From Nematostella vectensis (Eukaryota): a stretch of 64,000 nucleotides of DNA. Below, piece by piece: positions 12,842-50,842 of this stretch. Under the pieces are notes generated by a model. It had not been told where the DNA came from. It did no database searches and saw only the letters and a list, made by a program, of their open reading frames with translations. The DNA is taken from positions 1,753,027-1,817,026 of the forward strand of contig NC_064047.1 of NCBI RefSeq assembly GCF_932526225.1, in the 5' to 3' direction. Both the position numbers and the translations under genes were made by a program. Each line of letters begins with the position of its first letter. The stretch's first letter is position 1.

Positions 12842-12979
12842 ATGTCTGTTATCTTCTCTGGTCTCCTATTTGTACTGGATTCCTCCGGATTGCCTGGTTT
12901 CTCATTCAAACAGAAGCAAGAACTTCGCTCGAAGATCACTTCAAATGGCGGAACAATATCCTACATTTTGACCAAGAAG
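12842..12979 (+). CDS. PARP4: PARP4-like exon 1, carrying the start ATG and the BRCT-region N-terminus
   Basis: First in-frame ATG. MSVIFSGLLFVLDSSGLPGFSFKQKQELRSKITSNGGTISYILTKK resembles the PARP4 N-terminus (..KKKLQTDIKENGGKFSFSLNPQ). Donor aag|gttaga is weak. Confidence 0.7.
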
Positions 12980-13585
12980 GTTAGAATATCGCGCCCGAAT
13001 CCACAATTCTCCTTTCCTGTTGACTACGCAGTTTGCAAATAACTCTTTTATGCAGTTTCTTCTCTTTTTCTTTCATATATATTAATTTATTCGAGACATT
13101 AAAAACAAAAAGAAAGTGTTATTTTGAAACAGTTTCTTAAACTTTTCAGTTTGTTGTTGTTGCTGAATATTTAAAGTCAAAATTGGGAAGTAAAGAATTT
13201 AAGCCAATGGTTCTGCAATGGATATAGACAACCTATAAAATATATAAATAATCCTAACAAAAGTTACATGGTGGGTGGGTGGGTGGGGGGAATGGCTAAC
13301 GGGTATAGGGGTGATTTGTCCTTTGCGTATACTAAACTATACACACATGCATTTCCTTTTCCTTTTCCAACACTTGCTGGGGATGGGGTCCAGTGCGGGC
13401 ATCCAGGCTGGCTAGTGCATCTCATCATATAAGAGTTTTAATAAGAAGTGCATCCGAGCCGAAATCCACAAATTTCCCTTCTTCCATGTTTCCAAAAACT
13501 CCTAAGTCCACCATTCTCTCCTTATTCTCACATTTCCACATACCCAATCTATTTAAACCTAAAAAAAAATATCTGCCTTGTCTAG

Positions 13586-13790
13586 ACTGATTATGTGCTG
13601 ACTTCTGATGGAGAAAGGACCTTGTCTTCATACAAGGGAAGAACTGCAGCCAAGCTTGGGGTCCCTGTGGTTCACATAGACTTTATTGACAGCTGTCTAT
13701 CATCAGGACAACTCTCCGCCCCAGACCCCACTTACATTCTGTCAGAGACACCAGAATCCAAGCAGTTTAGCTCAGGCAAGATTGTCACAG
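13586..13790 (+). CDS. PARP4: PARP4-like exon 2 (BRCT)
   Basis: Acceptor tctag|. TDYVLTSDGERTL..GVPVVHIDFIDSCLSSGQL is BRCT-like. Donor |gtacac. Phase is consistent. Confidence 0.7.
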
Positions 13791-13827
13791 GTACACTAGG
13801 ATTGATATACATGATTTTAGTACATAC

Positions 13828-14340
13828 ACAGGGCTTAAGGAATTACGCGGAAAAAACTCAAAATTAAGCTGGATTCTTTGCTAAATTAGTGCTAAATTAC
13901 GCGGAAAATCAATCATTACGCGCTAAATTACACGGAATATCAAATGTTACGCCCAAACTACATTTTGTACCGAAGGAAAGCACGAAATAACTTGAAAAAG
14001 GTTTATTTTTTTGCGCGAAAATATCTAAGGTGAGTTCATTGGCTCCTAGCCACCAGCCAATTAAAAAAGGTATTTTATTATTAGTCCTAGGCCTTCACGG
14101 TTTAGCAAAGAACGCCTAGTCATTTTATTTGTTTTCGAAAATTCAGTTCGAAATATCGCATTCTTACGAATAATATTTGCCTTTTTTTTACGAGAAACAG
14201 AGGTGAGAACCCTAAAAGAACACATCAGCTGTGCACTTAAATGTTTTGTCTTTCAAAATTTAGCTAAATTACGCGGATTACGCGGAGAAAGCCAAATTAC
14301 GCGCTTCTGCACAAGCGCATAATTCCAGAAGCCCTGCATA
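13828..14340 (+). mobile_element. MITE family B (about 460-510 bp; TIR cagggcttctg-like; internal ttacgcgg motifs), copy in PARP4-like intron 2
   Basis: Starts cagggcttaagg.. and ends ..ccagaagccctg. Confidence 0.8.
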
Positions 14341-14858
14341 CAGTACAGTTAAGAAATATTTTTGTATAACTAGTATTTTTAAAGTGCAAACATAATGTGA
14401 AAGCTGGACATGATCAGATGCCTTGCCTTTGCTTGTCAGTAATATACCTGACAGGCCAGTCCATATACATTCCATTCATAAGTTTAAGTCAGTGAGATAT
14501 AGTAATATAACGATCAGTAAAATATAATGAGGCAGATTGATATTGCAGAATTCTAAAACATTTTCTGTGGGACATTTGGGTTGCACTTAGCTGGCTTCTA
14601 TTTGCAGCTTTCTGATTGGATATTCCTGCATGAATCGGATCTGTGTTAATTCAAACAAGGACAATGATAGCTAAAGACAATGGCATAAAAAAAGAAGTGT
14701 TTGTTTGATGATCAATTCCAAATTTGTTGCCATCACTGTCCACGTTGTTGTCTTTGTAGTAGATCCACCAATCAGAATGCAGCATTTGATGACACACCAC
14801 TATAAATTTTTATTTGATTTTCCTAATATGAAATTATTTTTGCTTGCATATTTTACAG

Positions 14859-14937
14859 CTCCAAAACAAGGTGGATGTTTTAACAAAAAGGTCTCCAGTT
14901 CTGTCCAAGTTCTTCAAGCAGATCTAAGCAAAATAAG
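14859..14937 (+). CDS. PARP4: PARP4-like exon 3
   Basis: Acceptor ttttacag|, donor aag|gtactc; phase 1 to 2. Confidence 0.6.
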
Positions 14938-15033: not shown

Positions 15034-15112
15034 GTTCTTCCCTTACAAAGGCTCTAAAGGCCCAAGTTACGATGAGAAAAGTTATGAAATTGCAAAGCAT
15101 GTGCTGTATCAG
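15034..15112 (+). CDS. PARP4: PARP4-like exon 4
   Basis: RFFPYKGSKGPSYDEKSYEIAKHVLYQ resembles PARP4 ..DFEVAKYNTLEK. Bounded by ttag| and |gtaaat. Confidence 0.65.
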
Positions 15113-15368: not shown

Positions 15369-15497
15369 AGAAGGGCAGATGCAGGAGAGGTTCTTGTTTT
15401 CTCTGCCATTGAGCTTCATGTCATTCCTCCAAGCACTTGCTTTGATGGACATCACTACAGGGTGTTCCACCACCATGGGAATTTTAAGGCACTTAAG
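15369..15497 (+). CDS. PARP4: PARP4-like exon 5
   Basis: ..DAGEVLVFSAIELHV.. resembles PARP4 ..GGQEAVVVELQC... Bounded by tcatag| and |gtattc. Confidence 0.6.
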
Positions 15498-15946: not shown

Positions 15947-16117
15947 GAAGGAAATGATGCTGAGCAATGCACAAAAGAGTGTAGTTACCATGGAAGCAGT
16001 GAGGAGGCATTGGGGACGTACATAGCGCTGTGTGCGAAGGTAACACAACCCCCTCACAACTTAACATGCTGCTGGAAGACCCTCTCATCCAAGATAGGCT
16101 CCGATAAGATGAAGGAG
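15947..16117 (+). CDS. PARP4: PARP4-like exon 6
   Basis: The frame stays open across an internal gtaaca. ..KVTQPPHNL.. resembles HFTPEATQL. Donor gag|gttagt. Confidence 0.5.
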
Positions 16118-16509: not shown

Positions 16510-16689
16510 GAATCAATGGACACCCGCTCATCAGGGGAAGGAGAATCTGTCAGCCAAGAGGTGGCGAGCCTTGTGGACTACCTGTGGACAGAAGCGATTG
16601 GTTGCTTAAATAGCACATTGTCTGTGCCTTTAGAATCCATAAAGCTGCAAAAAGTACAAGAAGCTGAGGCAATATTGATGTCATTGAAG
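16510..16689 (+). CDS. PARP4: PARP4-like exon 7
   Basis: SQEVASLVDYLWTEAIGCLNSTL..AEAILMSLK resembles PARP4 SQEVSDLVEMIWAEALGHLEHML..AEGILLLVK. Confidence 0.85.
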
Positions 16690-16946: not shown

Positions 16947-17087
16947 GAAGAATTTGACAATACACAAAACAAGGAGAAGATTTCAAAACTTTGGGAAGAG
17001 TTTGATTCACTTATTCCTCATCAAATTAAAATCAAGGACTCAACAGTTAATAAGGGGTTGATTGCAGAGAAGCAAAATCTTTGTCAG
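16947..17087 (+). CDS. PARP4: PARP4-like exon 8
   Basis: ..EEFDSLIPHQ..KGLIAEKQNLCQ resembles ..TEFYRLIPHK..LGLLAKKADLCQ. Bounded by cag| and |gtgagt. Confidence 0.85.
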
Positions 17088-17419: not shown

Positions 17420-17580
17420 CTAATTAGAGATATGGTAACAATCAGCGAAGCCACCAACATGTCAACGGTGAGCAGCCACTTGGCCAAGTACAAGGCTCTT
17501 AGATGCCACATAGAGGCTCTGCACCCTGAAGAGGCAGAATACAAGGCGATCAAGGAGCTTGCAATAGAAGAACAGACAGG
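17420..17580 (+). CDS. PARP4: PARP4-like exon 9
   Basis: LIRDMVTISEATNMS..LAKYKALRCHIEAL resembles LIRDMVNVCETNLS..LAKYRALRCKIEHV. Confidence 0.9.
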
Positions 17581-17877: not shown

Positions 17878-17986
17878 CTCAAATGATATCATAGTGTTAA
17901 ATGTATTCTCGCTGCACCGCCCCGTGGAGGACATCAATTACAGGCATGGCCTCGGCAGACAAAAGCTACTATTCCATGCTTCTAGG
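17878..17986 (+). CDS. PARP4: PARP4-like exon 10, the start of the PARP catalytic fold (His of the H-Y-E triad)
   Basis: ..GRQKLLFHASR resembles ..NVRPLLHGSP. Donor agg|gtaagt. The 3' end of this exon plus its donor is the seed of the downstream 61-bp minisatellite. Confidence 0.85.
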
Positions 17987-20420
17987 GTAAGTCATTCTAT
18001 AAAGACATTACCTCGGCAGACAAAAGCTACTATTCCATGCTTCTAGGGTAAGTCATTCTATAAAGACATAACCTCGGCAGACAAAAGCTACTATTCCATG
18101 CTTTTAGGGTAAGTCATTCTAAAGACATTACCTCGGCAGACAAAAGCTACCATTCCATGCTTCTAGGGTAAGTCATTCTATAAAGACATTACCTCACCGG
18201 ACAAAAACTACTATTTCATGCTTTTAGGGTAAGTCATTCTATAAGACATTACCTCGGCAGACAAAAACTACTATTCCATGCTTCTAGGGTAAGTAATTCT
18301 ATAAAGACATTACCTCGGCAGACAAAAACTACTATTCCATGCTTCTAGGGTAAGTCATTCTATAAAGACATTACCTCACCGGACAAAGGCTACTATTCCA
18401 TGCTTTTAGGGTAAGTAATTCTATAAAGACATTACCTCGGCAGACAAAAGCTATTATTCCATGCTTCTAGGGTAAGTCATTCTATAAAGACATTACCTCG
18501 GCAGACAAAAACTACTATTCCATGCTTCTAGGGTAAGTCATTCTATAAAGACATTACCTCACCGGACAAAAACTACTATTTCATGCTTTTAGGGTAAGTC
18601 ATTCTATAAAGACATTACCTCACCGGACAAAGGCTACTATTCCATGCTTCTAGGGTAAGTCATTCTATAAAGACATTACCTCACCGGACAAAGGCTACTA
18701 TTCCATGCTTCTAGGGTAAGTCATTCTATAAAGACATTACCTCGGCAGACAAAAGCTACTATTCCATGCTTCTAGGGTAAGTCATTCTATAAAGACATTA
18801 CCTCGGCAGACAAAGGCTACTATTCCATGCTTCTAGGGTAAGTCATTCTATAAAGACATTACCTCGGCAGACAAAAGCTACTATTCCATGCTTTTAGGGT
18901 AAGTCATTCTATAAAGACATTACCTCACCGGACAAAGGCTACTATTCCATGCTTCTAGGGTAAGTCATTCTATAAAGACATTACCTCGGCAGACAAAAAC
19001 TACCATTCCATGCTTCTAGGGTAAGTCATTCTATAAAGACATTACCTCGGCAGACAAAAGCTACCATTCCATGCTTCTAGGGTAAGTCATTCTATAAAGA
19101 CATTACCTCAGCAGACAAAAGCTATTATTCCATGCTTCTAGGGTAAGTCATTCTATAAAGACATTACCTCGGCAGACAAAGGCTACTATTCCATGCTTCT
19201 AGGGTAAGTCATTCTATAAAGACATTACCTCGGCAGACAAAAGCTACCATTCCATGCTTCTAGGGTAAGTCATTCTATAAAGACATTACCTCGGCAGACA
19301 AAGGCTACTATTCCATGCTTCTAGGGTAAGTCATTCTATAAAGACATTACCTCGGCAGACAAAAGCTACTATTCCATGCTTTTAGGGTAAGTCATTCTAT
19401 AAAGACATTACCTCACCGGACAAAGGCTACTATTCCATGCTTCTAGGGTAAGTCATTCTATAAAGACATTACCTCGGCAGACAAAAACTACCATTCCATG
19501 CTTCTAGGGTAAGTCATTCTATAAAGACATTACCTCGGCAGACAAAAGCTACCATTCCATGCTTCTAGGGTAAGTCATTCTATAAAGACATTACCTCGGC
19601 AGACAAAAGCTATTATTCCATGCTTCTAGGGTAAGTCATTCTATAAAGACATTACCTCGGCAGACAAAAACTACTATTCCATGCTTCTAGGGTAAGTCAT
19701 TCTATAAAGACATTACCTCACCGGACAAAGGCTACTATTCCATGCTTCTAGGGTAAGTCATTCTATAAAGACATTACCTTTGCAGACAAAGGCTACTATT
19801 CCATGCTTCTAGGGTAAGTCATTCTATAAAGGCATTACCTCGGCAGACAAAGGCTACTATTCCATGCTTCTAGGGTAAGTCATTCTATAAAGACATTACC
19901 TCGGCAGACAAAAGCTACTATTCCATGCTTTTAGGGTAAGTCATTCTATAAAGACATTACCTCACCGGACAACGCTACTATTCCATGCTTTTAGGGTAAG
20001 TCATTCTATAAAGACATTACCTCGGCAGACAAAAGCTACTATTCCATGCTTCTAGGGTAAGTCATTCTATAAAGACATTACCTCACCGGACAAAAACTAC
20101 TATTTCTTGTTTTTGGGGTAAGTCATTCTATAAAGACATTACCTCGGCAGACAAAAACTACTATTCCATGCTTCTAGGGTAAGTCATTCTATAAAGACAT
20201 TACCTCGGCAGAAAAAAAAAACTACTATTCCATGCTTCTAGGGTAAGTCATTCTATAAAGACATTACCTCGGCAGACAAAAGCTACTATTTCATGCTTCT
20301 AGGGTAAGTCATTCGATAAATATATAACCTAGGCGGACAAAAGCTACTATTCCATTCGTTTTAGGGTAAATCATTCTATAAAGACATTGCCTATAGGCGG
20401 ACAAAATCTACTATTCCATT
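17950..20420. repeat. Minisatellite of about 61 bp x about 40 copies, derived from the exon 10 3' end plus its splice donor
   Basis: Unit cctcggcagacaaaagctactattccatgcttctagg|gtaagtcattctataaagacattac is identical to the last 37 nt of exon 10 plus 24 nt of intron. Every copy carries an agg|gtaagt donor. Confidence 0.95.
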
Positions 20421-20619
20421 CTTGTAGGGCAATTTATTTTTTACAAACATGGTTACAAACTAGGTTTTCTTCGCCTCTAAGGGTAAGGGGTTTTTTGTTC
20501 TTTTTCCGGCTTGAAATAAAAGAAAGACAATGATATCGTGAGGACTTTTGATGAAAGTATAGTCGACAAAGAGACAATAAGCTATTAAGTCTAACTATTT
20601 CTGTTTTGTTGTATCGCAG

Positions 20620-20648
20620 GTCAGGAATTTTGTTGGAATACTCTCGAG
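20620..20648 (+). CDS. PARP4: PARP4-like exon 11 (29-bp micro-exon)
   Basis: VRNFVGILS resembles VQNIVGILCRG. Bounded by cgcag| and |gtaaat. It restores the phase between exons 10 and 12. Confidence 0.75.
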
Positions 20649-21337: not shown

Positions 21338-21436
21338 GGGTTTACTTCTCCCTACGATTGTCGTCGACGATTTTGGGGGCCAGCGGTCTGATGCAGGGAT
21401 GTTGGGCCACGGTATCTATTTTGCTGACAGAGCCAG
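21338..21436 (+). CDS. PARP4: PARP4-like exon 12 (catalytic; Tyr of the triad)
   Basis: GLLLPTIVVDDFGGQRSDAGMLGHGIYFADRA resembles GLLLPKVVEDRGVQRTDVGNLGSGIYFSDSLS. Confidence 0.9.
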
Positions 21437-21499: not shown

Positions 21500-21581
21500 C
21501 ACAAGTGCTAAATACTCGTCCCCAGGCATGCTCGGATCCCGTTTTATGCTGGTCAATAAAGTGGCGTTGGGCAAATCCAAG
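21500..21581 (+). CDS. PARP4: PARP4-like exon 13 (catalytic)
   Basis: TSAKYSSPG..VNKVALGKSK resembles TSIKYSHPG..ICDVALGKCMD. Confidence 0.85.
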
Positions 21582-22479: not shown

Positions 22480-22578
22480 GAATATCGTAAGTTTACTAAA
22501 GATCTGACGCGACCGCCTGACGGGTATAATAGCGTCATAGGTGTCAAGGCGACCGAGACGCAGCCATCAGACTTCAAG
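22480..22578 (+). CDS. PARP4: PARP4-like exon 14 (catalytic)
   Basis: ..TRPPDGYNSVIGVKATE..SDFK resembles ..TEAPPGYDSVHGVSQTA..TDFE. The exon end plus donor is duplicated downstream. Confidence 0.85.
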
Positions 22579-23261: not shown

Positions 23262-23349
23262 GATGACGAATTTGTTGTTTACGACACCAAGCAGCAGCAG
23301 ATGAGGTATGTCATCTTCACCCGTCAAATACTTATTCGGGATGACTGTG
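23262..23349 (+). CDS. PARP4: PARP4-like exon 15 (catalytic Glu). The alternative donor is at 23385.
   Basis: DDEFVVYDTKQQQMRYVIF resembles DDEFVVYKTNQVKMKYIIKF. A 36-bp in-frame tandem duplication carries a second gtagag donor. Confidence 0.75.
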
Positions 23350-23488: not shown

Positions 23489-23935
<447 letters not shown>

Positions 23936-24287
23936 TCTGTCTACGCGGATGTTTAACGCAATGTTCGTTTATTTAAATGGAAATAAATTACAGTAAAATG
24001 TGTTTAATATTTGTGACTTTCGTCAGATATCTTGTGGAATTTGCTCTACCGGAAGATAACATAATCGCCCGCGATAATGTGTCCGTTGACAGCGGATTTG
24101 TTGAAGAGCCGCTCGATAATGAAGGTTAGACAGCAAATATGTGTTGTTAAAGTAAAAGTTATAAAAACAATCATAATAAGATGTTATATATAATCTAAAA
24201 TAATAATCTAATCATAATAAAATCCAAAAAAAACCTTTTTTTTCGTAGTTTATCGCTTTATCAGTAATGAAGTTTTTTTCTATGCAG

Positions 24288-24433
24288 ATGAGATAGAAGT
24301 TGATCTGTCTGACGTGATGTCCATCCCAGATCCCTTACTGAAGGTTGAGGCTGGGTTGAAAGGGACTGCTGACAAGCCTGTTCCACTCAAAGCGGTCCAT
24401 ATTCGCGCCAAGCTTCTTGACCTCGCAGCACAG
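24288..24433 (+). CDS. PARP4: PARP4-like exon 16
   Basis: ..KPVPLKAVHIRAKLLDLAAQ resembles ..NLVPLEDVHIKGRIIDTVAQ. Donor cag|gtaatg. Confidence 0.8.
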
Positions 24434-24804: not shown

Positions 24805-24889
24805 GTTGTAGTGATGCAGGTGTATTGTAACAACAGCGACGTACCGATTGAAGCCAAGTACGTCTTCCCTCTAGATGATATGGCGGCGG
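24805..24889 (+). CDS. PARP4: PARP4-like exon 17 (VIT)
   Basis: VVVMQVYCNNSDVPIEAKYVFPLDDMAA resembles VIVFQTYTNKSHVPIEAKYIFPLDDKAA. Confidence 0.95.
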
Positions 24890-25302: not shown

Positions 25303-25436
25303 TTTGCGGATTTGAGGCCTTCATCAATGGTAAACACATCATTGGTGAGGTAAAAGAAAAAGAACAAGCACGCAAAGAGTACCGGGAAGCAATCAGCGCA
25401 GGGCATGGGGCCTATCTCATGGACGAGGAGACACCA
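25303..25436 (+). CDS. PARP4: PARP4-like exon 18 (VIT)
   Basis: VCGFEAFINGKHIIGEVKEKEQARKEYREAISAGHGAYLMDEETP is near-identical to the PARP4 VIT domain. Confidence 0.95.
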
Positions 25437-25926: not shown

Positions 25927-26132
25927 GACGTGTTCACCGTGAACGTAGGTAACCTACCCCCAGCTGCAAGCGTGCTCATTAAGATCACCTATGTTGCCGA
26001 ACTCACCGTGGAGGGAGAACTCATCTGCTTTCGGTTACCAGGAAGCGTGGCGCCATGGCAGCGCACGCAAGCGCATGATGACGTCACTCAAACAGATGTG
26101 GATACTATTTGTGTTGATGAGGAGAATCAAAG
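25927..26132 (+). CDS. PARP4: PARP4-like exon 19 (VIT)
   Basis: DVFTVNVGNLPPAASVLIKITYVAEL.. resembles DVFTVSVGNLPPKAKVLIKITYITEL... Donor aag|gttaag. It is followed by the 4.65-kb satellite intron. Confidence 0.9.
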
Positions 26133-30853: not shown

Positions 30854-30935
30854 CAACACCTCAGTTCAGGTCTCTGTTGAAATGCCATTTGAGATCCGTG
30901 CTATTCTTTGCCCTGGACACGATGTCAAGGTCAAG
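30854..30935 (+). CDS. PARP4: PARP4-like exon 20
   Basis: SNTSVQVSVEMPFEIRAIL..KVK resembles ..SFSLTMSIEMPYVIEFI... Confidence 0.8.
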
Positions 30936-33270: not shown

Positions 33271-33467
33271 TCCGTCAAAGCTGTCAAGGGAAGTACCGAC
33301 CTCTGGCGCGTACTGCGCTCGCTGTACCTGCTCCGATGCAACTCAACCGCTGACTACCCGAGTAATGTGTTCCTCTTCACCGACGGTCACGTGACAGAGG
33401 AGAGCACGACACTGGCGTATATCCGGGATATTAGGTTGCGCACGCGCGTGTTCACGTTCGGTGTCGG
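33271..33467 (+). CDS. PARP4: PARP4-like exon 25 (vWA)
   Basis: ..GSTDLWRVLRSLYLL..NVFLFTDGHVTEESTTL..TRVFTFGVG resembles ..GNTDFWKTLRYLSLL..NILLVSDGHLQDESLTL..TRLFACGIG. Confidence 0.9.
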
Positions 33468-34125: not shown

Positions 34126-34225
34126 ACCCACATGCAATCGGCACTTCTTGCGTTCTATGGCCCGCGTGGGGGCTGGGGCCTATGAGCTGTTTGACTCTAA
34201 AGTCAAGTCAAAGTGGGAGCGAAAG
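34126..34225 (+). CDS. PARP4: PARP4-like exon 26
   Basis: PTCNRHFLRSMARVGAGAYELF.. resembles STANRHVLRILSQCGAGVFEYF... Confidence 0.85.
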
Positions 34226-34312: not shown

Positions 34313-34408
34313 GTGGAATCGCAACTCTCTAAAGCAAGGCAGCCAGTTTTGACGTCAGTGAAGGTTGCCTGGCAACAACATGACAGCTATGCTAAGCCAC
34401 CAGTGCAG
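34313..34408 (+). CDS. PARP4: PARP4-like exon 27
   Basis: ..SVKVAWQQHDSYAKPPVQ resembles ..SVSVKWQQLNPDVPEALQ. Confidence 0.8.
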
Positions 34409-34535: not shown

Positions 34536-34610
34536 GCTCCACATGATATTGTGTCGCTTTTCAACGGTTCAAGACAAGTAGTCTACGGACTCGTCGACAA
34601 CTGTACTCAG
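34536..34610 (+). CDS. PARP4: PARP4-like exon 28
   Basis: ..VVYGLVDNCTQ resembles ..LVYGFIPHCTQ. Confidence 0.8.
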
Positions 34611-34937: not shown

Positions 34938-35018
34938 GCGTCTTTGACAGCAGAAGTTGACGGTAGGGTAGTATCGACAATGGTGTCCACTTCCGAACTC
35001 AGCATCACAACCGGCAAG
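34938..35018 (+). CDS. PARP4: PARP4-like exon 29
   Basis: ..VVSTMVSTSELSITTGK resembles ..FRTMVSTTELQKTTGT. Confidence 0.85.
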
Positions 35019-35794: not shown

Positions 35795-35875
35795 GTTCTC
35801 CACCAGTTGACAGCGCGAGCGATAATTCGCGATTGGGAAGAGGGAAGCCTGGACCCGAACCACACCAAGCATGAG
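35795..35875 (+). CDS. PARP4: PARP4-like exon 30
   Basis: VLHQLTARAIIRDWEEGSL resembles MIHKLAARALIRDYEDGIL. Confidence 0.85.
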
Positions 35876-36756: not shown

Positions 36757-36858
36757 ATGGCAAAGAGAGACATGAAGGATTTCATCATTTCTCTCAGCAA
36801 GCGCTTCTCCATCGTATCTCAGTTTACAAGTTTTGTGGCAATCGAACACAGAAAAAAG
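36757..36858 (+). CDS. PARP4: PARP4-like exon 31
   Basis: ..IISLSKRFSIVSQFTSFVAIEHR resembles ..IIKLSKENSLITQFTSFVAVEKR. Confidence 0.9.
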
Positions 36859-37657: not shown

Positions 37658-37792
37658 GATGAAAAGTTTGACGCTAGTCTGGGGCCGAGTATCGATGAAC
37701 TGGTGTCACATGAGGACGTTGACGTCATTCCATACGTCAGCTGGGAGGAGCCTGAGTCACGTGATGTGGGCAAACCTGAATCATCATCCAAG
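37658..37792 (+). CDS. PARP4: PARP4-like exon 32
   Basis: ..ELVSHEDVDVIPYVSWEEPE.. resembles ..ELIAKEDVDFLPYMSWQGEPQ... Confidence 0.85.
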
Positions 37793-38548: not shown

Positions 38549-38692
38549 TCGACAGGTGACCGCGTGGCCGGACTTGTCTCAGAGGCCCGGGTACTAGAGC
38601 GCTTCTCGGTGCTTCAGGCTGAGACGCTATACAAGCGAGCCTGCGATACTGCCTTATCAGCGGAAAGCCCTGACAACCGGGCGACATACAAG
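38549..38692 (+). CDS. PARP4: PARP4-like exon 33
   Basis: Bounded by ttag| and |gtaacc; phase 0/0. Resemblance to the PARP4 region ..GLGVLPAFTSNLERGGV.. is loose. Confidence 0.55.
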
Positions 38693-39503: not shown

Positions 39504-39597
39504 GCCTTCCTATCGCTGGCCCAGTTCTACGTTGACGTGCATGGCGACCTCCAGAAGGCAGAGGCACTTACGATGATGCTGCATGGGGCTCTAGGTG
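39504..39597 (+). CDS. PARP4: PARP4-like exon 34
   Basis: Bounded by cag| and |gtacgt; phase-consistent; open frame. Confidence 0.5.
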
Positions 39598-39959: not shown

Positions 39960-41707
39960 GTAAATGAACACTTTTCCTTTATTTCTGTTAGGGGTCGAAC
40001 ACTATGAATGAACACTTTTCCTTTATTTCTGTTAGGGATCGAACACTATGAATGAACACTTTTCCTTTATTTCTGTTAGGGATCGAACACTATGAATGAA
40101 CACTTTTCCTTTATTTCTATTAGGGATCGAACACTATGAATGAACACTTTTCCTTTATTTCTGTTAGGGATCGAACACTATGAATGAACACTTTTCCTTT
40201 ATTTCTGTTAGGAATCGAACACTATGAATGAACACTTTTCCTTTATTTCTGTTAGGAATCGCACACTATGAATGAACACTTTTCCTTTATTTCTGTTAGG
40301 GATCGAACATTATGAATGAACACTTTTCCTTTATTTCTGTTAGGGATCGCACACTATGAATGAACACTTTTCCTTTATTTCTATTAGGGATCGAACACTA
40401 TGAATGAACGCTTTTCCTTTATTTCTGTTAGGGATCGAACACTATGAATGAACACTTTTCCTTTATTTCTGTTAGGAATCGCACACTATGAATGAACACT
40501 TTTCCTTTATTTCTGTTAGGAATCGCACACTATGAATGAACACTTTTCCTTTATTTCTGTTAGGGATCGAACATTATGAATGAACACTTTTCCTTTATTT
40601 CTGTTAGGGATCGAACACTATGAATGAACACTTTTCCTTTATTTCTGTTAGGGATCGAACACTATGAATGAACACTTCTCCTTTATTTCTATTAGGGATC
40701 GAACACTATGAATGAACACTTTTCCTTTATTTCTGTTAGAGATCGCACACTATGAATGAACACTTTTCCTTTATTTCTATTAGGGATCGAACACTATGAA
40801 TGAACACTTTTCCTTTATTTCTGTTAGGAATCGCACACTATGAATGAACACTTTTCCTTTATTTCTGTTAGGAATCGCACACTATGAATGAACACTTTTC
40901 CTTTATTTCTGTTAGGGATCGAACATTATGAATGAACACTTTTCCTTTATTTCTGTTAGGGATCGAACACTATGAATGAACACTTTTTCTTTATTTCTGT
41001 TAGGGATCGAACACTATGAATGAACACTTCTCCTTTATTTCTATTAGGGATCGAACACTATGAATGAACACTTTTCCTTTATTTCTGTTAGGGATCGAAC
41101 CCTATGAATGAACACTTTTCCTTTATTTCTGTTAGGGATCGAACACTATGAATGAACACTTTTCCTTTATTTCTGTTAGGGATCGAACACTATAAATGAA
41201 CACTTTTCCTTTATTTCTGTTAGGGATCGCACACTATGAATGAGCACTTTTCCTTTATTTCTGTTAGGGATCGAACACTATGAATGAACACTTTTCCTTT
41301 ATTTCTATTAGGGATCGAACACTATGAATGAACACTTTTCCTTTATTTCTGTTAGGAATCGCACACTATGAATGAACACTTTTCCTTTATTTCTATTAGG
41401 GATCGAACACTATGAATGAACACTTTTCCTTTATTTCTGTTAGGAATCGCACACTATGAATGAACACTTTTCCTTTATTTCTGTTAGGGATCGAACACTA
41501 TGAATGAACACTTTTCCTTTATTTCTGTTAGGGATCGCACACTATGAATGAACACTTTTCCTTTATTTCTGTTAGGGATCGAACACTATGAATGAACACT
41601 TTTCCTTTATTTCTGTTAGGGATCGAACACTATGAATGAACACTTTTCCTTTATTTCTGTTAGGGATCGAACACTATGAATGAACACTTTTCCTTTATTT
41701 CTGTTAG
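39960..41707. repeat. Minisatellite of about 44 bp x about 40 copies, derived from the exon 35 acceptor (polypyrimidine tract, AG, and the first exon bases)
   Basis: Unit tgaatgaacacttttcctttatttctgttag|ggatcgaacacta. The true junction reads ..tttctgttag|gtatcgaacacgatg. Confidence 0.9.
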
Positions 41708-41798
41708 GTATCGAACACGATGTCTCCTCGCGATCCAACTTTGACGATCTGCTTGAGCATTTGCGACAGGACAGTTCGTATAGCGACGAAGTGGGGAG
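41708..41798 (+). CDS. PARP4: PARP4-like exon 35. Its acceptor and first about 12 bp seed the upstream 44-bp minisatellite.
   Basis: Bounded by ctgttag| and ag|gtaggg. Only one frame is open (IEHDVSSRSNFDDLLEHLRQDSSYSDEVG), and it is the phase-compatible one. Confidence 0.5.
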
Positions 41799-42618: not shown

Positions 42619-42998
42619 GCTGGTTGCTGAATTTAACCCAATGAAGGATATAAACAAATCCAAACGAAAAGTCATAGCTTCTCTTTTTCCAAATGTCGAT
42701 TATCCATGGAGCCAAACTGTAGTTAATAAACTGTTTGAAGCGTGCCGTTCTGAATCCAGCACGGAGACTGGTTCAACAGCTAGTTCGACGTCCAGTTCCG
42801 AAAGCAGTTCGGAAGAAGAACTGTCAGATAACTCGGAAGATTCCGACTGGGGTAGCGACGAGTTTTACGAAGACAATATAGACGATGAAGTTTACCAAGA
42901 TGCCGTCGGCGAGGAAGAAGAAGAGGAGGGCGAAGATGATGTGTATGGCATGTGCCTTGAAGAAGCCGAGGAAGTAGAAAGATCAGAGGCACCAACGC
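42619..42998 (+). CDS. PARP4: PARP4-like exon 36 (Ser/acidic-rich)
   Basis: Bounded by cacag| and |gtaagt. Open frame of 126 codons ending in an acidic tract (SSSESSSEEELSDNSEDSDW..EEEEEEGEDD), comparable to the acidic region of the PARP4 tail. Confidence 0.6.
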
Positions 42999-43289: not shown

Positions 43290-43393
43290 GCACTTGTTAT
43301 CGATGTTGGCTCCCACATGTGGAAGGTTGGGTTCGCAGGTGACGACGCGCCTAAGGGTGTGTTCCCGCCAATTGTCGGCCGACCTCGCCACCA
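43290..43393 (+). CDS. Actin-derived cassette exon A, spliced in-frame into the PARP4-like gene
   Basis: [34 protein letters not shown] matches actin residues about 8-41 ([35 protein letters not shown]). It ends at the conserved actin 41/42 intron position. Bounded by ttttag| and cag|gtaaac. Phase 1 in, phase 0 out. Confidence 0.6.
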
Positions 43394-43401
43394 GGTAAAC
43401 T

Positions 43402-44178: not shown

Positions 44179-44371
44179 GGCGTGATGGTAGGAATGGGGC
44201 AAAAGGACTCTTATGTGGGTTGGGAGGCACATTCCAAGCGTGGTATTCTTTCTCTCTCTACCCCCCAAAAACGTGAAGCTCGCCCCACTCCTCCCTTGCA
44301 AGATCGCCCCCCTCCTCCCTTGCAAGATCGGCCGCCGCCTGCGATGGAAGGAAGGGCTTTGACGAAGGACC
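44179..44371 (+). CDS. Actin-derived cassette exon B: actin residues about 42-65, then a divergent Pro-rich stretch
   Basis: [26 protein letters not shown] matches actin [26 protein letters not shown], followed by [32 protein letters not shown]... Bounded by ctgcag| and c|gtaagt. Exons A plus B total 297 bp, a multiple of three. Confidence 0.55.
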
Positions 44372-46369: not shown

Positions 46370-46885
46370 GAGTTATCTGGCCTATCGAAGAGGCACCATT
46401 AGACCACACAGCATCAATTGACCTGGAGGAGCAGGAAGACTTGTACGTAGATATGGACAAAGGGGAAGTCTTGGATGACGACGGATTGTTTGAGGCGATG
46501 TGCAATAATGCCCAAAAGGCGGCATCTTTGGCCATGGGCAAGCGTCGCCAAGATGTGGACCAGCTGACGTTGGACAGTTACGATGATATACATGAAGTCC
46601 TGCCTAGTAACACCCAAGTCGCAGCAACTTTGGACACCGACGACATGTATGTAGATATGAAAAACCGTGCTACAAGTTCTGCTTTGAAGGAGAGGGCCGT
46701 TAGCTATGATATCCAAGATAGCTTGTGTGAGGTTGCTGAAGATGCTGTTAAGGAGGAAGAAGCCGAACGTCCAATCGCAATCTTTGGCTTAGACTCGTGT
46801 ATCGCACGCGTGTCATCATCTGAGGAAAAGAGTTCGTTGTATGACGAGATTCCATCCCCACCAAATAGGCCATTCAAAAAAAAAG
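46370..46885 (+). CDS. PARP4: PARP4-like exon 39 (acidic). The donor is uncertain: gtaggt at 46886, with an alternative near 46903.
   Basis: Bounded by ctttcag|. Phase-compatible with both exon 36 and cassette exon B. Open frame of 171 codons, acidic. Confidence 0.5.
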
Positions 46886-47281: not shown

Positions 47282-47545
47282 AACAAAAGGCGCGTCTAGT
47301 AAGCGGGGACCCGATCTGACATTTGATGACACCAACTCAGCATCCATATCCATATGTCCTTGGGGACCAAGGGCGAGCCGTAGACCGGAAGCGGGAGTAC
47401 GCGCGACGACGAAAGAAAGAGGGGTAAAAGACGTCTGTATAATGTATGGAACGGCACTATATAGTTATTTGGGAACTCGATTCATCTGAGTAGGTGTCAT
47501 CAAATATCAGGTAACGTCTTCGCTTACTAGACGCGCCTTTTCGCT
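47282..47545. mobile_element. MITE with a 20-bp perfect TIR aaaggcgcgtctagtaagcg .. cgcttactagacgcgccttt
   Basis: Direct inspection. Confidence 0.8.
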
Positions 47546-47870: not shown

Positions 47871-49312
47871 CCCCTCTTACGGATATACTCAGTGCTAATA
47901 CCGGACTCCTCCCATTCGCAGTCGCCAACATACCGTCACCCAAACCGCGGCCACCTAGGGCCTCTAAGATAGCCGCACCACCGGCTCCATCCCTACAAGC
48001 TGTCTGTATCGACCTCCCGGAACCTCCCCTGAAGGCTGGGGACTCACCGTTGAAAAGATCTGTAAAAGCACCACTACCACCTCCTCCACCTCAACAAGCT
48101 TCCCGGATCGACTACCGGGCTTCATATGGAGCCGCACCACCGGCTCCATCCCTACAAGCTGTCTGTATCGACCTCCCGGAACCTCCCCTGAAGGCTGGGG
48201 ACTCACCGTTGAAAAGATCTGTAAAAAAACCACTACCACCTCCTCCACCTCAACAAGCTGCCCGGATCGACTACCGGGCTTCATATGGCGCTCCACCTCT
48301 TCCTCCGAAGAGAGGTGGAGGCCCACCTCTTCCTCCGAAGAGAGTCGCCAACATACCGTCACCCAAACCGCGGCCACCTAGGGCCTCTAAGATAGCCGCA
48401 CCACTGGCTCCATCCCTACAAGCTGTCTGTATCGACCTCCCGGAACCTCCCCTGAAGGCTGGGGACTCACCGTTGAAAAGATCTGTAAAAGCACCACTAC
48501 CACCTCCTCCACCTCAACAAGCTTCCCGGATCGACTACCGGGCTTCATATGGAGCCGCACCACCGGCTCCATCCCTACAAGCTGTCTGTATCGACCTCCC
48601 GGAACCTCCCCTGAAGGCTGGGGACTCACCGTTGAAAAGATCTGTAAAAAAACCACTACCACCTCCTCCACCTCAACAAGCTGCCCGGATCAACTACCGG
48701 GCTTCATATGGCGCTCCACCTCTTCCTCCGAAGAGAGGTGGAGGCCCACCTCTTCCTCCGAAGAGAGGTGGAGGCCCACCTCTCTTCGGTGCCATGGCTT
48801 TGAGGACAGGTGCCCCCTCAAAGGCATCGAAACCAAGTTTTGGTGGAAGAGGTCAACCACAGGTGTTCGCAACATCTGCTAGTGAAATCCTTCACCCGAG
48901 GCTAGCCCGAACTCCATCTGAACTCGCGCCCAAAGGAGTCCCATCACAGACTAATGATGAAGCTCCAGTTTTTATGTCCCGACTACAACTGTTGGAAAGT
49001 ATTCGCGCGAAGAAAAAGACCAAGGAGACCGACAGAGAAGATATTATGAAACAGGATGACTCAGGTGAGGCCGATATTTTACGCAGAGAAGCCCACCAAC
49101 ATAGCATGGAAACAGAGCTAGAAGCTGATAGGAATGAGGCTGAAATGGGTGTTCGTCCGGTACCACGAAAGCGTGGTAAGAGGATGCTGGAAAAGAAGGC
49201 GGCGGAGCAGAAAAAGGAGGCGATGGAAGAGCCCTCGGAATCGTTGCAGAACAGAATGCGGAAATGGATGACCGCTGACAAGTTGTTGGAGCTGTTTGCG
49301 TCTCAGCATAAC
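47871..49312 (+). CDS. PARP4: PARP4-like exon 40: Pro-rich, with an internal 423-bp in-frame tandem duplication and a WH2-like stretch
   Basis: Acceptor cccccag| (alternative at 47921, same phase). Open frame of 480 codons. The 141-aa unit VANIPSPKPRPP..PPLPPKRGGGPPLPPKR occurs twice (47921-48343 and 48344-48766). Donor aac|gtaagt. The PARP4 tail is likewise Pro-rich. Confidence 0.65.
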
Positions 49313-49820
49313 GTAAGTAAGAGAAATGAAGGAGACGGCGGGGGTTTTAAAGCACGCATAGATCAGTGTTGTTTTATAGGGACCTTAAGCAAGAACGACG
49401 ACGGTGGCAAGGACAACGAGATCTAAAAAGATGTGTTAGCGCTTGGTGATCAATTCCAATTTAATTGCAATGCAATAAGCAAAACATGCGATAAAAAGAT
49501 AATAAAAATAAACTAAGACATTATTTTTACTGTAGCGAACGTAGTCAGAGGAGTTGACAGTGCAAATGTGCGCGTCCCCAATTTACCGTGAAAGTTGGAG
49601 TTTTCACGACATGGTTTGGTCTAAAACTAATGTAAAACTAATGCATCAGACAGAACGCATTTTCACAAGCTGCTATTTAATTCTGTATCCAATTCCATTG
49701 TTTTCTGCCTTCGTCAATTATTACTAGAAATGAAAAATAGATTATGCAGTATCAACTTGCCAGTGGCTTTAACCCACCAAAAAAAATATTCGACTTAGTG
49801 ACTTTGTGATCTGCTTGCAG

Positions 49821-49917
49821 GATGGCTATTGGAGTGAGAAAGAACTGGAGGTCGCCTTTAGGATAGACTGCTCGTTCTTGTCAAGGCTTCTTGTGAATGC
49901 TGGTGCACAAAGTCTAG
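49821..49917 (+). CDS. PARP4: PARP4-like exon 41 (C-terminal MVP-binding-like)
   Basis: ..LLELFASQHN|DGYWSEKELEVAF..AGAQSLG resembles PARP4 ..WTELLSLQTEDGFWKLTPELGLIL..KGIQSLGV. Confidence 0.8.
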
Positions 49918-50045
49918 GTGAGAGGGGCACGCATGATAAAAACACGGAAAAACATGAAAAAAACATCAACGATGAATATGATGATGATGATGGTCGTGCT
50001 GCTGCTGTTGATGATGATGATTGCGATTGCGATGATGATGATGGT

Positions 50046-50240
50046 GGTGGTGACGTGATGGTGATGGTGGTGGTGATGATGATGGTGATGGTGATGGTGA
50101 TGGTGATGGTGATGGTGATGGTGATGGTGATGGTGATGGTGATGGTGATGGTGATGGTGATGGTGATGGTGATGGTGATGGTGATGGTGATGGTGATGGT
50201 GATGGTGATGGTGATGGTGATGGTGATGGTGATGGTGGTG
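50046..50240. repeat. (GTGATG)n hexamer microsatellite, flanked by (GATGAT)/(GACGAC) tracts, in the intron after exon 41
   Basis: Direct inspection. Because the period is a multiple of three, it produces artefactual poly-VM / poly-IT ORFs on both strands. Confidence 0.95.
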
Positions 50241-50576
50241 GTGGCGGCGGCGGCGAGGACGACGACGACGACGACGAAAGCGAAGATGACGACGATGATG
50301 ACGATGATGATGATGATAATCATAATTTTACGGTGATGGCAGTGACTAGGGCTCTAATATATAAGAATATATTAGAGCCCTAGGTATCACCTCACCCTCC
50401 AGAATACACAGTAAAATGTAGATATATTCTAAGACTATCTATGACAATGCCAATTACATATAGTGTAAGTGTGTCAGCTTTGCTTGGGTCGAAAATGTCG
50501 ACGGCCGGCGATGCTTTGTATCATTAGGATTAAGTTAAACCCCTACAAACCCTTCAACCAAACTTTCGCCTTACAG

Positions 50577-50842
50577 GTGACGAAGCGTTCGAAACAATCC
50601 TTAAGATGCTGACAACCATTATCACACTGGCCATCCTCAAGACTTACCTACCTGATCAGTTCCCAGTTTCTCTTGTCCAAGGCGTATCGAGTGAGGGCCT
50701 TGTGACTAGTGAATGGAGAAACCAAGTCGGGAGGGCGCTATCATGGCTAAGAAAGATGGACCGAAAGATGCCGTCCGTTTGCTCCCGTCTAGAGCTTGGG
50801 CCTGACTGGGACGTTGTGGCAAAGGGTATAATTGATGACAAG
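50577..50842 (+). CDS. PARP4: PARP4-like exon 42 (C-terminal)
   Basis: ..KMPSVCSRLELGPDWDVVAKGII resembles PARP4 ..QYPSICPRLELGNDWDSATKQLLG. Donor aag|gtacat. Read-through would add KVHLMIGVR* (stop at 50867), so either a short read-through tail or a further 3' exon is possible. Confidence 0.8.

What the first reader, a model, noticed from the sequence alone, without database searches (positions are those of the whole stretch)
12842..50842. Complete PARP4 (vault PARP) orthologue of 38 kb and about 42 exons with a conserved catalytic triad
Hand reconstruction gives an uninterrupted reading frame across 42 exons, every junction phase-compatible. The domain order is BRCT, PARP, VIT, vWA, acidic/Pro-rich tail, then an MVP-binding-like C-terminus. 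The H-Y-E residues are retained (LLFHASR, GIYFAD, DDEFVVY), although the glycine of the usual H-G-S motif is replaced by alanine. The C-terminal ..CSRLELGPDWD.. matches the region of human PARP4 that binds the major vault protein, implying that vault particles exist in this organism.
Basis: partly seen in the sequence, partly recalled or inferred. Interest (0 to 1): 0.5.

Follow-up and report, generated by a model that had tools for sequence, protein, structure and literature searches.

The report
Sea anemone PARP4 (vault PARP) gene

Summary
Window 12842-50869 (+) holds a 43-exon gene with 42 GT-AG introns. Its 7,065-nt CDS translates without interruption into 2,354 aa. That translation is identical to RefSeq XP_048577466.1, 'protein mono-ADP-ribosyltransferase PARP4 isoform X1 [Nematostella vectensis]'.

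The domain order is BRCT, PARP helical plus catalytic (H461/Y501/E570), VIT, vWA, a long linker, then a C-terminal region. The C-terminal region aligns to human PARP4 residues 1583-1704, inside the MVP-interaction (MINT) domain. Human PARP4 is by far the best solved-structure match (E 1e-257, against 1e-17 for PARP1 and 6e-14 for ITIH1). The rival readings (VWA5A/ITIH) are therefore excluded. The gene is already known.

- The 'acidic/Pro-rich tail' contains a diverged 14-3-3-like segment and a 65-residue actin N-terminal (D-loop) fragment. The actin fragment is also present in PARP4 of Hydra, bivalves and a flatworm. Such appended domains were noted in the literature in 2014.
- The catalytic-His exon end plus its donor is multiplied about 40 times by a 61-bp intronic minisatellite.
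- A 44-bp minisatellite multiplies the acceptor of exon 36 about 40 times.

That vaults exist in this animal is a reasonable inference but was not tested here.

The parts
12842..12979 (+). Exon 1 (aa 1-46): start codon, first half of BRCT
   Evidence: Homologues begin here (M-x-V-F). Pfam BRCT 4-84. Identical to RefSeq X1.
13586..13790 (+). Exon 2 (aa 47-115): second half of BRCT
   Evidence: Donor score 8.0..
14859..14937 (+). Exon 3 (aa 115-141)
   Evidence: Found ab initio as the phase-compatible bridge between exons 2 and 4. Confirmed by identity to RefSeq.
15034..15112 (+). Exon 4 (aa 141-167)
   Evidence: aligns to the vertebrate '...EVAKYS...' motif..
15369..15497 (+). Exon 5
15947..16117 (+). 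Exon 6
16510..16689 (+). Exon 7: start of the PARP helical (regulatory) domain
   Evidence: Pfam PARP_reg 305-388 at 23 bits. Aligns to human PARP4 from residue 256.
16947..17087 (+). Exon 8: helical domain
17420..17580 (+). Exon 9: helical domain / start of catalytic domain
17878..17986 (+). Exon 10 (aa 428-464): catalytic His461 (LLFHASR). Its last 28 nt plus the donor form the first unit of the 61-bp array.
17950..20429 (+). 61-bp minisatellite, about 40.6 copies at 92% match. The unit is the last 28 nt of exon 10 plus the first 33 nt of intron 10. It supplies 40 donors, nearly all AGG|GTAAGT: the genuine one at 17986 and 39 decoys inside intron 10.
   Evidence: TRF, sequence, per-copy table. 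Any decoy donor gives a premature stop.
20620..20648 (+). Exon 11 (29 nt, VRNFVGILS)
21338..21436 (+). Exon 12: catalytic Tyr501 (GIYFAD)
21500..21581 (+). Exon 13: catalytic domain
22480..22578 (+). Exon 14: catalytic domain
23262..23305 (+). Exon 15: catalytic Glu570 (DDEFVVY)
24027..24124 (+). Exon 16: end of the PARP domain
24288..24433 (+). Exon 17: start of VIT
   Evidence: Pfam VIT 648-758.
24805..24889 (+). Exon 18: VIT
   Evidence: Used by 12 of 12 homologues..
25303..25436 (+). Exon 19: VIT
   Evidence: Used by 12 of 12 homologues..
25927..26132 (+). Exon 20: end of VIT
30854..30935 (+). Exon 21
31292..31429 (+). Exon 22
31738..31830 (+). Exon 23: start of vWA (MIDAS-region motif DASCS)
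   Evidence: Pfam VWA 897-1051.
32083..32176 (+). Exon 24: vWA
32707..32780 (+). Exon 25: vWA
33271..33467 (+). Exon 26: vWA
34126..34225 (+). Exon 27: end of vWA
34313..34408 (+). Exon 28: conserved post-vWA region
34536..34610 (+). Exon 29
34938..35018 (+). Exon 30
35795..35875 (+). Exon 31
36757..36858 (+). Exon 32
37658..37792 (+). Exon 33 (…EDVDVIPYVSWEE…). This is the last block that aligns with human PARP4, to about residue 1216.
38549..38692 (+). Exon 34: diverged 14-3-3-like segment, first part
   Evidence: Aligns to Acropora P0002 and JGI P0126. Profile A1 hits only 14-3-3 structures. hhalign 88.7%..
39504..39597 (+). Exon 35: 14-3-3-like segment, second part
39963..41722 (+). 44-bp minisatellite, 40 copies at 96% match. 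The unit is the last 29 nt of intron 35 (polypyrimidine tract plus AG) and the first 15 nt of exon 36. It supplies 40 acceptors at exactly 44-nt spacing: 39 decoys and the genuine one at 41708.
   Evidence: TRF, sequences, per-copy analysis (acceptor scores 8.9-11.9; any decoy gives a premature stop).
41708..41798 (+). Exon 36 (aa 1334-1364)
   Evidence: Ab initio (acceptor 11.9, donor 7.5). Confirmed by RefSeq identity.
42619..42998 (+). Exon 37: Ser/Asp/Glu-rich acidic stretch
43291..43394 (+). Exon 38: actin-like fragment part 1 (actin residues ~7-41). It ends at the position of the classical actin intron at codon 41/42.
   Evidence: tblastn with ACTB: 77% identity, E 2e-12. Pfam Actin. Splice scores 7.8/9.6 and phase-compatible..
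44179..44371 (+). Exon 39: actin-like fragment part 2 (actin residues ~42-70, [14 protein letters not shown]…) followed by a Pro-rich stretch
   Evidence: tblastn 83% identity..
46370..46885 (+). Exon 40: acidic region. This is the last exon shared by all five RefSeq isoforms.
47288..47489 (+). Alternative exon used by RefSeq isoforms X2 (read-through to a stop) and X3 (donor at 47423). Its products lack the MINT region.
   Evidence: The acceptor coordinate is approximate (+/- 1 nt).
47922..49312 (+). Exon 41 (aa 1762-2225): Pro-rich, with an in-frame 423-bp x2 duplication, then a Lys/Glu-rich stretch
   Evidence: My own model placed the acceptor 51 nt too far upstream, at 47871.
49821..49917 (+). 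Exon 42: start of the MINT-like (MVP-interaction) region (DGYW…AQSLG)
50577..50869 (+). Exon 43: remainder of the MINT-like region (…CSRLELGPDWD…) and the stop codon TGA at 50867-50869
   Evidence: human 1583-1704, E 9e-9.. ATTAAA at 50942.

Best explanation
This is the single-copy PARP4 (vault PARP) gene of the starlet sea anemone Nematostella vectensis. It has 43 coding exons over 38.0 kb and encodes a 2,354-aa protein.

Shown here:
- The gene is intact. It has a canonical BRCT domain and a PARP helical plus catalytic domain with the NAD+-binding/catalytic triad H461-Y501-E570.
- These are followed by VIT and vWA domains and a conserved post-vWA block.
- A linker of about 1,000 residues follows, then a C-terminal helical region homologous to the human MINT domain.

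Inferred from the human enzyme (Kickhoefer 1999; Lodwick 2025, PMC12280208):
- The protein uses NAD+ to ADP-ribosylate itself and nearby proteins.
- Its C-terminal MINT region docks onto repeats 3-5 of the major vault protein, inside the vault cage.
- The long flexible linker lets the catalytic half reach the lumen or cargo.

The linker is composite. It holds a diverged remnant of a 14-3-3 domain (helices G-I), acidic stretches, an actin fragment limited to residues ~7-70 (strand-loop plus D-loop), and a recently duplicated Pro-rich block.

RefSeq also predicts shorter isoforms (X2-X5) that end after exon 40 and would not be tethered to vaults.

Two intronic minisatellites arose by tandem duplication across an exon-intron and an intron-exon junction. 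The annotated mRNA uses the exon-proximal copy of each, which is the only copy that keeps the frame open.
For: - Exact identity of the 43-exon translation to XP_048577466.1, named PARP4 isoform X1 of N. vectensis.
- An independent rebuild from homologues and ab initio matched the first 1,761 residues before the RefSeq protein was known to me.
- Pfam domains in PARP4 order.
- Human PARP4 is the top solved-structure hit at E 1.3e-257, with PARP4 catalytic-domain crystal structures at E 3e-73. PARP1 scores 1e-17 and ITIH1 6e-14.
- The triad columns align with human PARP4.
- The C-terminus aligns to human 1583-1704 at E 9e-9. The MVP-contact residues S1614 and R1689 are conserved.
- All 42 introns are GT-AG with good site scores.
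- No competing gene on the minus strand and no Rfam hit.
Against: - The third mapped MVP-contact residue, K1618 (which forms a salt bridge to MVP D214 in human), aligns with an acidic residue here. Binding geometry may therefore differ.
- The PARP_reg match is below Pfam's cut-off (23 bits against 26.8).
- Thirty-nine equally strong decoy donors and 39 decoy acceptors lie in introns 10 and 35. They could lower the yield of correctly spliced mRNA.
- Four of the five RefSeq isoforms lack the MINT region.
- I saw no transcript or protein data directly. RefSeq XP_ records are model predictions.
- Presence of MVP in this genome was not tested.
- Human PARP4 is reported to be a mono-ADP-ribosyltransferase despite H-Y-E (my own knowledge), so the triad does not by itself predict polymer synthesis.
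Confidence: 0.95

Rival explanations
1. It is a different VIT-vWA protein (VWA5A- or ITIH-like), and the PARP/BRCT similarity is spurious.
For: ITIH1 and ITIH4 do match the vWA region (E 6e-14 and 1.5e-13).
Against: Those matches cover only aa ~843-1101. BRCT, PARP_reg, PARP and the MINT-like C-terminus are all present and in frame. Human PARP4 scores 861 bits against 54 bits for ITIH1. RefSeq names the gene PARP4.
Confidence: 0.01
2. Two adjacent genes have been joined. One is a PARP4 that really ends after exon 40, as in isoforms X2-X5. The other is a separate downstream gene encoding the Pro-rich/MINT-like protein.
For: Four of five RefSeq isoforms terminate around 47.3-48.0 kb. My PWM scored the exon-41 acceptor weakly. 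No homologue spans this junction in my alignments.
Against: The downstream part is homologous to the C-terminus of human PARP4 itself, so the fused order is the ancestral one. Exon 40 to exon 41 is phase-compatible and used in RefSeq X1. X3 and X4 reach exon 41 sequence in a shifted frame and stop at once, as by-products of the same splice region would. No start codon or promoter evidence exists for an independent downstream gene.
Confidence: 0.04
3. The actin-like exons are a nested fragment of an actin pseudogene lying in a PARP4 intron. They are not part of the protein.
For: Only actin residues ~7-70 are present and no further actin exons exist in the window. The intron sits at the classical actin codon 41/42 position, as expected for a DNA-level copy of an actin gene.
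Against: Both exons have good splice sites and are phase-compatible with their neighbours. They are included in all five RefSeq isoforms. The same fragment occurs at the same place in PARP4 of Hydra, Mytilus, Magallana, Saccostrea and Macrostomum, with [19 protein letters not shown] invariant or nearly so. That degree of conservation is incompatible with a decaying pseudogene.
Confidence: 0.02
4. The gene copy in this assembly is functionally disabled, or strongly down-tuned, by the two junction-spanning minisatellites, despite its intact reading frame.
For: There are 39 decoy donors identical to the real one and 39 decoy acceptors of equal strength. Use of any of them gives a premature stop.
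Against: The full frame is intact over 7 kb and the conserved residues are retained. Both arrays lie on the intron side of the genuine site, so exon definition would select the exon-proximal copy. RefSeq models use exactly those sites.
Confidence: 0.05

Closest known systems
Human PARP4 / vPARP (UniProt Q9UKK3; PDB 9bw6, 9bw7, 11jf, 8sx1, 8swy)
   Same: The domain order is the same: BRCT, PARP helical plus catalytic with H-Y-E, VIT, vWA, a long linker and a C-terminal MINT domain. The alignment is continuous from human 256 to 1215 (E 1e-257) and from 1583 to 1704 (E 9e-9). MVP-contact residues S1614 and R1689 are conserved.
   Different: The sea anemone protein is 630 residues longer (2,354 against 1,724 aa), all of it in the linker. 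The linker carries an actin D-loop fragment and a 14-3-3-like remnant, and no counterpart aligned in the human chain in the searches run here. It has H-A-S instead of H-G-S. The K1618 position is acidic.
'Third type' PARP4-like proteins with an appended 14-3-3 domain, and in some an actin domain (Perina et al. 2014, DNA Repair 23:4, PMC4245714)
   Same: VIT and vWA are followed by a 14-3-3-derived segment and, further downstream, an actin-derived segment. The arrangement is the same as in lancelet, sea urchin, Capsaspora and amoebae according to that paper. Here I also found it in Hydra, bivalves and Macrostomum.
   Different: In Nematostella the 14-3-3 part is too diverged to reach Pfam's threshold on its own and is recognisable only through a family profile. 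The actin part is not a domain but a 65-residue fragment. The paper did not list Nematostella, for which only a 930-aa partial model existed, and it did not describe the fragmentary nature of the insert.
Cytoplasmic actin (e.g. human ACTB)
   Same: Residues ~7-70 are 79% identical. The DNase-I-binding loop and its flanks ([20 protein letters not shown]) are identical, and the intron lies at codon 41/42.
   Different: There is no actin fold: subdomains 3 and 4 and most of 1 and 2 are missing. The phosphate-binding DNGSG loop is altered to DVGSH. It cannot be an actin.
ITIH / VWA5A family (VIT-vWA proteins)
   Same: They share the VIT-vWA module (E ~1e-13 over the vWA part).
   Different: They have no BRCT, no PARP domain and no MINT region. 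They are secreted or otherwise unrelated in context.

Membership tests
PARP4 (clade 5 / vault PARP) | [quoted passage not shown] | tested here: met
   Pfam PARP 413-587, E 2.6e-28. H461, Y501 and E570 align with the human PARP4 columns. PARP4 catalytic-domain crystal chains 8sx1 and 8swy score E 3e-73 and 2e-48.
PARP4 (clade 5 / vault PARP) | N-terminal BRCT domain | tested here: met
   Pfam BRCT 4-84, E 1.3e-8, and BRCT_2 4-90. Aligns to human residues 5-86.
PARP4 (clade 5 / vault PARP) | VIT followed by vWA, downstream of the catalytic domain | tested here: met
   VIT 648-758, E 1.3e-37. VWA_3 897-1051, E 1.1e-20.
PARP4 (clade 5 / vault PARP) | C-terminal MVP-interaction (MINT) domain | tested here: met
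   The last ~120 aa align to human 1583-1704 within MINT 1562-1724, E 9e-9. S1614 and R1689 are conserved; K1618 is not. This is homology only.
PARP4 (clade 5 / vault PARP) | Closest relative is PARP4 rather than another PARP or another VIT-vWA protein | tested here: met
   861 bits to human PARP4, against 64 bits to PARP1 and 54 bits to ITIH1. The top database hits are all named PARP4. The organism's own RefSeq record is named PARP4.
PARP4 (clade 5 / vault PARP) | Physical association with vault particles / binding to MVP | not testable with these tools
   Needs co-purification or binding assays.
PARP4 (clade 5 / vault PARP) | ADP-ribosyltransferase activity | not testable with these tools
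   Only the conservation of catalytic residues is shown.
Actin | Complete actin fold (~375 aa, four subdomains, nucleotide-binding loops) | tested here: not met
   The Pfam Actin match covers profile positions 5-65 of 410 only. No other actin exons exist in the window. The DNGSG loop is changed.
14-3-3 | Nine-helix 14-3-3 domain recognised by Pfam PF00244 | tested here: not met
   No Pfam or PDB hit for the window's segment alone. Only a four-sequence profile of PARP4 linkers reaches 14-3-3 helices G-H (E 3e-4; hhalign 88.7%). It is a diverged remnant, not a member.

The most novel reading that the evidence does not exclude
The short host-protein fragments kept in the PARP4 linker may be functional 'bait' or mimic modules rather than evolutionary debris. 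The fragments are the actin D-loop segment (here and in Hydra, bivalves and a flatworm), the 14-3-3 helices, and a VAMP SNARE motif in lungfish and oyster PARP4.

Two versions are possible:
- They are integrated decoys for pathogen effectors that cleave or modify actin, 14-3-3 or VAMP. An attack would then cut or mark the tether between the catalytic half of PARP4 and the vault-bound MINT domain.
- The D-loop mimic docks PARP4, and with it vaults, onto the barbed-end cleft of actin.

Separately, the two junction-spanning minisatellites could act as copy-number-variable splice-site decoys that tune PARP4 output.
Probability: 0.07. Interest if true: 0.75.

Novelty: already known. Interest (0 to 1): 0.2.

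Why it matters
As stated, the finding adds nothing new. The gene is annotated in RefSeq, and the presence of PARP4 in non-bilaterian animals has been in the literature since 2010-2014. Its value is as a positive control: a reader working from raw sequence reconstructed a 43-exon gene almost perfectly.

Two side observations may deserve a short follow-up.

First, an actin fragment confined to the D-loop region has been conserved inside PARP4 since at least the cnidarian-bilaterian ancestor. This hints at an unexplored link between vault PARP and actin or actin-targeting factors.

Second, this gene offers a natural experiment in splice-site choice. It has 40 identical tandem donors and 40 near-identical tandem acceptors, and only the exon-proximal copy of each gives a productive mRNA.

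Tried and rejected
1. Packing all open + strand segments into pseudo-proteins for Pfam was too bulky and was abandoned.
2. The first version of my spliced aligner had a float32 rounding bug that gave nonsense tracebacks. It was fixed.
3. I first joined exon 2 to exon 4 through a weak donor at 13740 (GTCAGA, score -5.5). I rejected this after the ab initio chain found exon 3 at 14859-14937, which RefSeq later confirmed.
4. A 22-nt filler exon (37893-37914) and many tiny exons proposed by the chainer at low penalties were rejected. They had weak sites and P0126 supported a direct 37792->38549 junction.
5. My exon-41 acceptor (47871) was wrong by 51 nt; the true site is 47922. The optional exon 47341-47423 turned out to be part of an alternative exon of isoforms X2 and X3.
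6. A possible splice at 50842 (donor score 9.0) is not used in RefSeq X1, which reads through to the TGA.
7. Single-sequence searches of the 14-3-3-like segment against Pfam and the PDB were negative. Only a family profile gave a signal.
8. The word-indexed homologue search with the tail found only 2 proteins, and the one with the vWA-C region only 11. The exhaustive representative search was what identified the organism.
9. Literature searches for MVP in Nematostella gave nothing usable.
10. The Rfam scan of the window gave no hits.
11. Minus-strand ORFs within the gene gave no Pfam hits.

Full report
**Observation**

The window is AT-rich eukaryotic DNA (about 40% GC). GIYFAD is at 21411-21428, DDEFVVY at 23262-23282 and CSRLELGPDWD at 50780-50812. 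LLFHASR occurs not once but about 25 times between 17966 and 20303, in all three frames. This is because the 3' end of that exon lies in a 61-bp tandem array.

**Gene model**

No eukaryotic gene finder was available, so I wrote two tools:
- a protein-to-genome spliced aligner (GT/GC-AG introns, all phases);
- an exon chainer using splice PWMs and codon log-odds trained on the confident exons.

Homologues came from a database search with a rough PARP-VIT concatenation. The best hits were all annotated PARP4: Desmophyllum and Acropora at 61% identity, vertebrates at 45-48%, with E from 1e-130 to 1e-210. Thirteen homologues agreed on the exons from 16.5 to 37.8 kb. Acropora and two metagenomic PARP4 fragments supported exons at 38.5 and 39.5 kb. 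The remaining tail came from the ab initio chain and the N-terminal bridge exon 14859-14937. The result was a 43-exon open frame.

**Independent validation and identity**

An exhaustive HMMER search of 1.84 billion representative proteins returned one 100%-identical protein. It is XP_032219397.2, 'protein mono-ADP-ribosyltransferase PARP4 isoform X2 [Nematostella vectensis]'. Its cluster also contains isoforms X1 and X3-X5.

My model matched the first 1,761 residues of all isoforms exactly. These are exons 1-40 and include the exons found only ab initio. It matched X1 everywhere except the exon-41 acceptor, which is 47922, not 47871.

With that correction, the 43 exons (12842-50869) give 42 GT-AG introns and a 7,065-nt CDS. 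The translation is identical to XP_048577466.1, 2,354 aa. Its end coordinate, 50842, falls 27 nt before the stop codon, at a donor-like site that RefSeq does not use.

**What the protein is**

Pfam on X1 gives these matches:

| Family | Residues | E-value | Note |
|---|---|---|---|
| BRCT | 4-84 | 1.3e-8 | |
| PARP_reg | 305-388 | 7.5e-5 | 23 bits, below the cut-off |
| PARP | 413-587 | 2.6e-28 | |
| VIT | 648-758 | 1.3e-37 | |
| VWA_3 | 897-1051 | 1.1e-20 | |
| Actin | 1490-1555 | 7.5e-12 | profile positions 5-65 only |

Against all PDB sequences, the N-terminal 1,202 residues hit human PARP4 at E 1.3e-257 (query 235-1198 against human 256-1215). PARP4 catalytic-domain crystal structures score 3e-73. 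PARP1 scores only 8e-17 and ITIH1 6e-14.

The triad aligns with human PARP4:
- H461, LLFHASR against LLHGSP;
- Y501, GIYFAD against GIYFSD;
- E570, DDEFVVY in both.

The Gly-to-Ala change is real relative to human. Other PARP4s read HST, HAS, HAT or HSS, so this position is simply variable in the family.

**C-terminus**

The last two exons align to human PARP4 residues 1583-1704 (E 9e-9). These chains come from the vault-PARP4 cryo-EM entries 9bw6 and 9bw7. Lodwick et al. 2025 (PMC12280208) define the MVP-interaction (MINT) domain as residues 1562-1724. They name S1614, K1618 and R1689 among the contact residues.

In my alignment S1614 (AQSLG) and R1689 (CSRLELG) are conserved. K1618 aligns with an acidic residue.

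That vaults exist in Nematostella is a reasonable inference: PARP4 distribution tracks vault distribution (PMC2964712 and PMC4245714).

**The linker is more than 'acidic/Pro-rich'**

*Actin fragment.* Exons 38-39 encode [34 protein letters not shown]|[26 protein letters not shown].
- It is 77-83% identical to actin residues 7-70.
- The intron lies at the classical actin codon 41/42 position (my own knowledge of actin gene structure).
- No other actin exons exist in the window.
- The exons are phase-compatible with good splice sites and are present in all five RefSeq isoforms.
- The same fragment sits at the same relative place in PARP4 of Hydra vulgaris, Mytilus edulis, Magallana gigas, Saccostrea cucullata and Macrostomum lignano, and in several environmental sequences.
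- Across these, VGRPRH is invariant and [12 protein letters not shown] nearly so. The nucleotide-binding DNGSG loop is not conserved, and homology ends near residue 70.

*14-3-3-like segment.* Exons 34-35, and possibly 36, are homologous to a linker segment in other PARP4s.
- In one of these (P0126) the segment passes Pfam's 14-3-3 threshold (E 1.6e-8).
- A four-sequence profile hits only 14-3-3 proteins in the PDB (top 60 hits, E 3e-4 to 7e-3, helices G-H). hhalign gives 88.7% probability.
- The Nematostella segment alone gives no hit.
- Sixteen PARP4-family representatives carry 14-3-3 segments, including lancelet and a dictyostelid. Three carry a VAMP SNARE motif, including lungfish and oyster.

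Perina et al. 2014 (PMC4245714) already reported PARP4-like proteins with appended 14-3-3 and, in some, actin domains. So this too is known in outline. The fragmentary, D-loop-centred nature of the actin insert and its presence in cnidarians, molluscs and flatworms are refinements. What the fragments do is unknown. Candidate functions are given in the most-novel-reading (the section on the most novel reading) section of this report and are speculative.

**Junction-spanning minisatellites**

*61-bp array.* Intron 10 begins with a 61-bp array of about 40 copies (17950-20429). Its unit is the last 28 nt of exon 10 plus the first 33 nt of the intron. The genuine donor at 17986 is therefore followed by 39 more donors, almost all the identical AGG|GTAAGT.

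*44-bp array.* Intron 35 ends with a 44-bp array of 40 copies (39963-41722). Its unit is the polypyrimidine tract and AG plus the first 15 nt of exon 36. This gives 39 decoy acceptors at exact 44-nt spacing upstream of the genuine one at 41708.

Using any decoy introduces a premature stop. Both arrays lie on the intron side, so selection of the exon-proximal site by exon definition gives the productive mRNA. Those are the sites RefSeq uses.

A rough estimate (my arithmetic, not a tool result) asks how often two of the four large intronic arrays of this gene would overlap a splice junction by chance. The answer is about p = 0.08. That is suggestive, not significant. I found no reason to think the arrays are assembly artefacts, since their copies differ in a structured way.

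**Surroundings**

There is no gene on the minus strand inside the locus and no Rfam family. The flanks carry:
- a KDZ-transposase fragment;
- a reverse-transcriptase fragment;
- a coiled-coil ORF;
- a DGCR6-like gene.

**Verdict**

The gene is already annotated and is an ordinary orthologue. Interest is low for the finding as stated, with two modest curiosities attached: the conserved actin D-loop insert and the splice-site minisatellites.

Noticed in passing
window 17950-20429: A 61-bp minisatellite (~40 copies) whose unit spans the exon 10 / intron 10 junction. It gives 40 tandem donors, nearly all AGG|GTAAGT, and only the first yields an open frame. It also explains why LLFHASR appears ~25 times in three frames.
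   Followed up: yes
window 39963-41722: A 44-bp minisatellite (40 copies, exact spacing) whose unit spans the intron 35 / exon 36 junction. It gives 40 tandem polypyrimidine-AG acceptors, and only the last yields an open frame.
   Followed up: yes
window 43291-43394 and 44179-44371: Two exons encode an actin fragment (residues ~7-70, D-loop region) inside PARP4. It is conserved in PARP4 of Hydra, bivalves and a flatworm. The intron lies at actin codon 41/42.
   Followed up: yes
window 38549-39597 (and perhaps 41708-41798): A diverged remnant of 14-3-3 helices G-I in the PARP4 linker. It is recognisable only through a profile of related PARP4 linkers.
   Followed up: partly
proteins P0154 (Protopterus annectens PARP4, aa 1334-1373), P0067 (Saccostrea) and P0158: Some PARP4 linkers contain a synaptobrevin/VAMP SNARE-motif fragment. 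The lungfish one is 67% identical to VAMP2 residues 39-78. None is present in the Nematostella window.
   Followed up: partly
window 26159-30796: A 26-bp x 179 minisatellite (4.6 kb) that starts 27 nt after the exon 20 donor. It makes intron 20 the longest intron (4,721 bp). It is open in all three + frames and so mimics a huge ORF.
   Followed up: no
window 23499-23932: A (CTCTCTGT)x54 microsatellite in intron 15.
   Followed up: no
window 47920-48767: A 99%-identical in-frame 423-bp x2 duplication, with nested 159-bp units, in the Pro-rich exon 41. The repeat starts within 2 nt of the exon 41 acceptor. It indicates a very recent expansion of the coding sequence.
   Followed up: partly
window 47288-47489 and 47919-47972: RefSeq isoforms X2-X5 end here through a read-through exon or frame-shifted use of exon 41. 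They lack the MVP-interaction region. They are either vault-independent forms or unproductive splice variants.
   Followed up: partly
window 49978-50317: A (GATGGT)n/(GAT)n microsatellite in intron 42. It reads as a long poly-Asp/Gly or poly-Met/Val ORF but is not coding in the RefSeq model.
   Followed up: no
window 11730-12081: A 65-bp x 5.4 (129-bp x 2.7) tandem repeat about 760 bp upstream of the PARP4 start codon, in the presumed promoter or 5' region.
   Followed up: no
window 10913-11290 (-), 58696-59796 (+): Transposon remnants: a Kyakuja-Dileera-Zisupton transposase fragment (E 2e-5) upstream and a reverse-transcriptase fragment (RVT_1, E 4e-12) downstream.
   Followed up: partly
window 61251-64000 (+): A DGCR6-like gene (exon 62544-62777, Pfam DGCR6 E 7e-17). 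A 72-bp x 4.7, 99%-identical, coding-looking repeat lies at 63658-63998 and runs off the window end.
   Followed up: partly
window 54064-54954 (+): A 296-aa coiled-coil ORF with weak similarity to the NEMO CC2-LZ domain (E 0.002, below the cut-off). It is possibly an exon of the next gene downstream.
   Followed up: no
window ~32200-32290, ~50930-50990, ~63280-63390 (+): A short dispersed repeat. Its translation reads ...KPHCHQFTSGGPSETSTVKRQKNLLES / ...SPVYFRRS..., and it recurs in at least three places. It is probably a SINE- or MITE-like element. G-runs (GGGGGGGG...) also recur in several introns.
   Followed up: no
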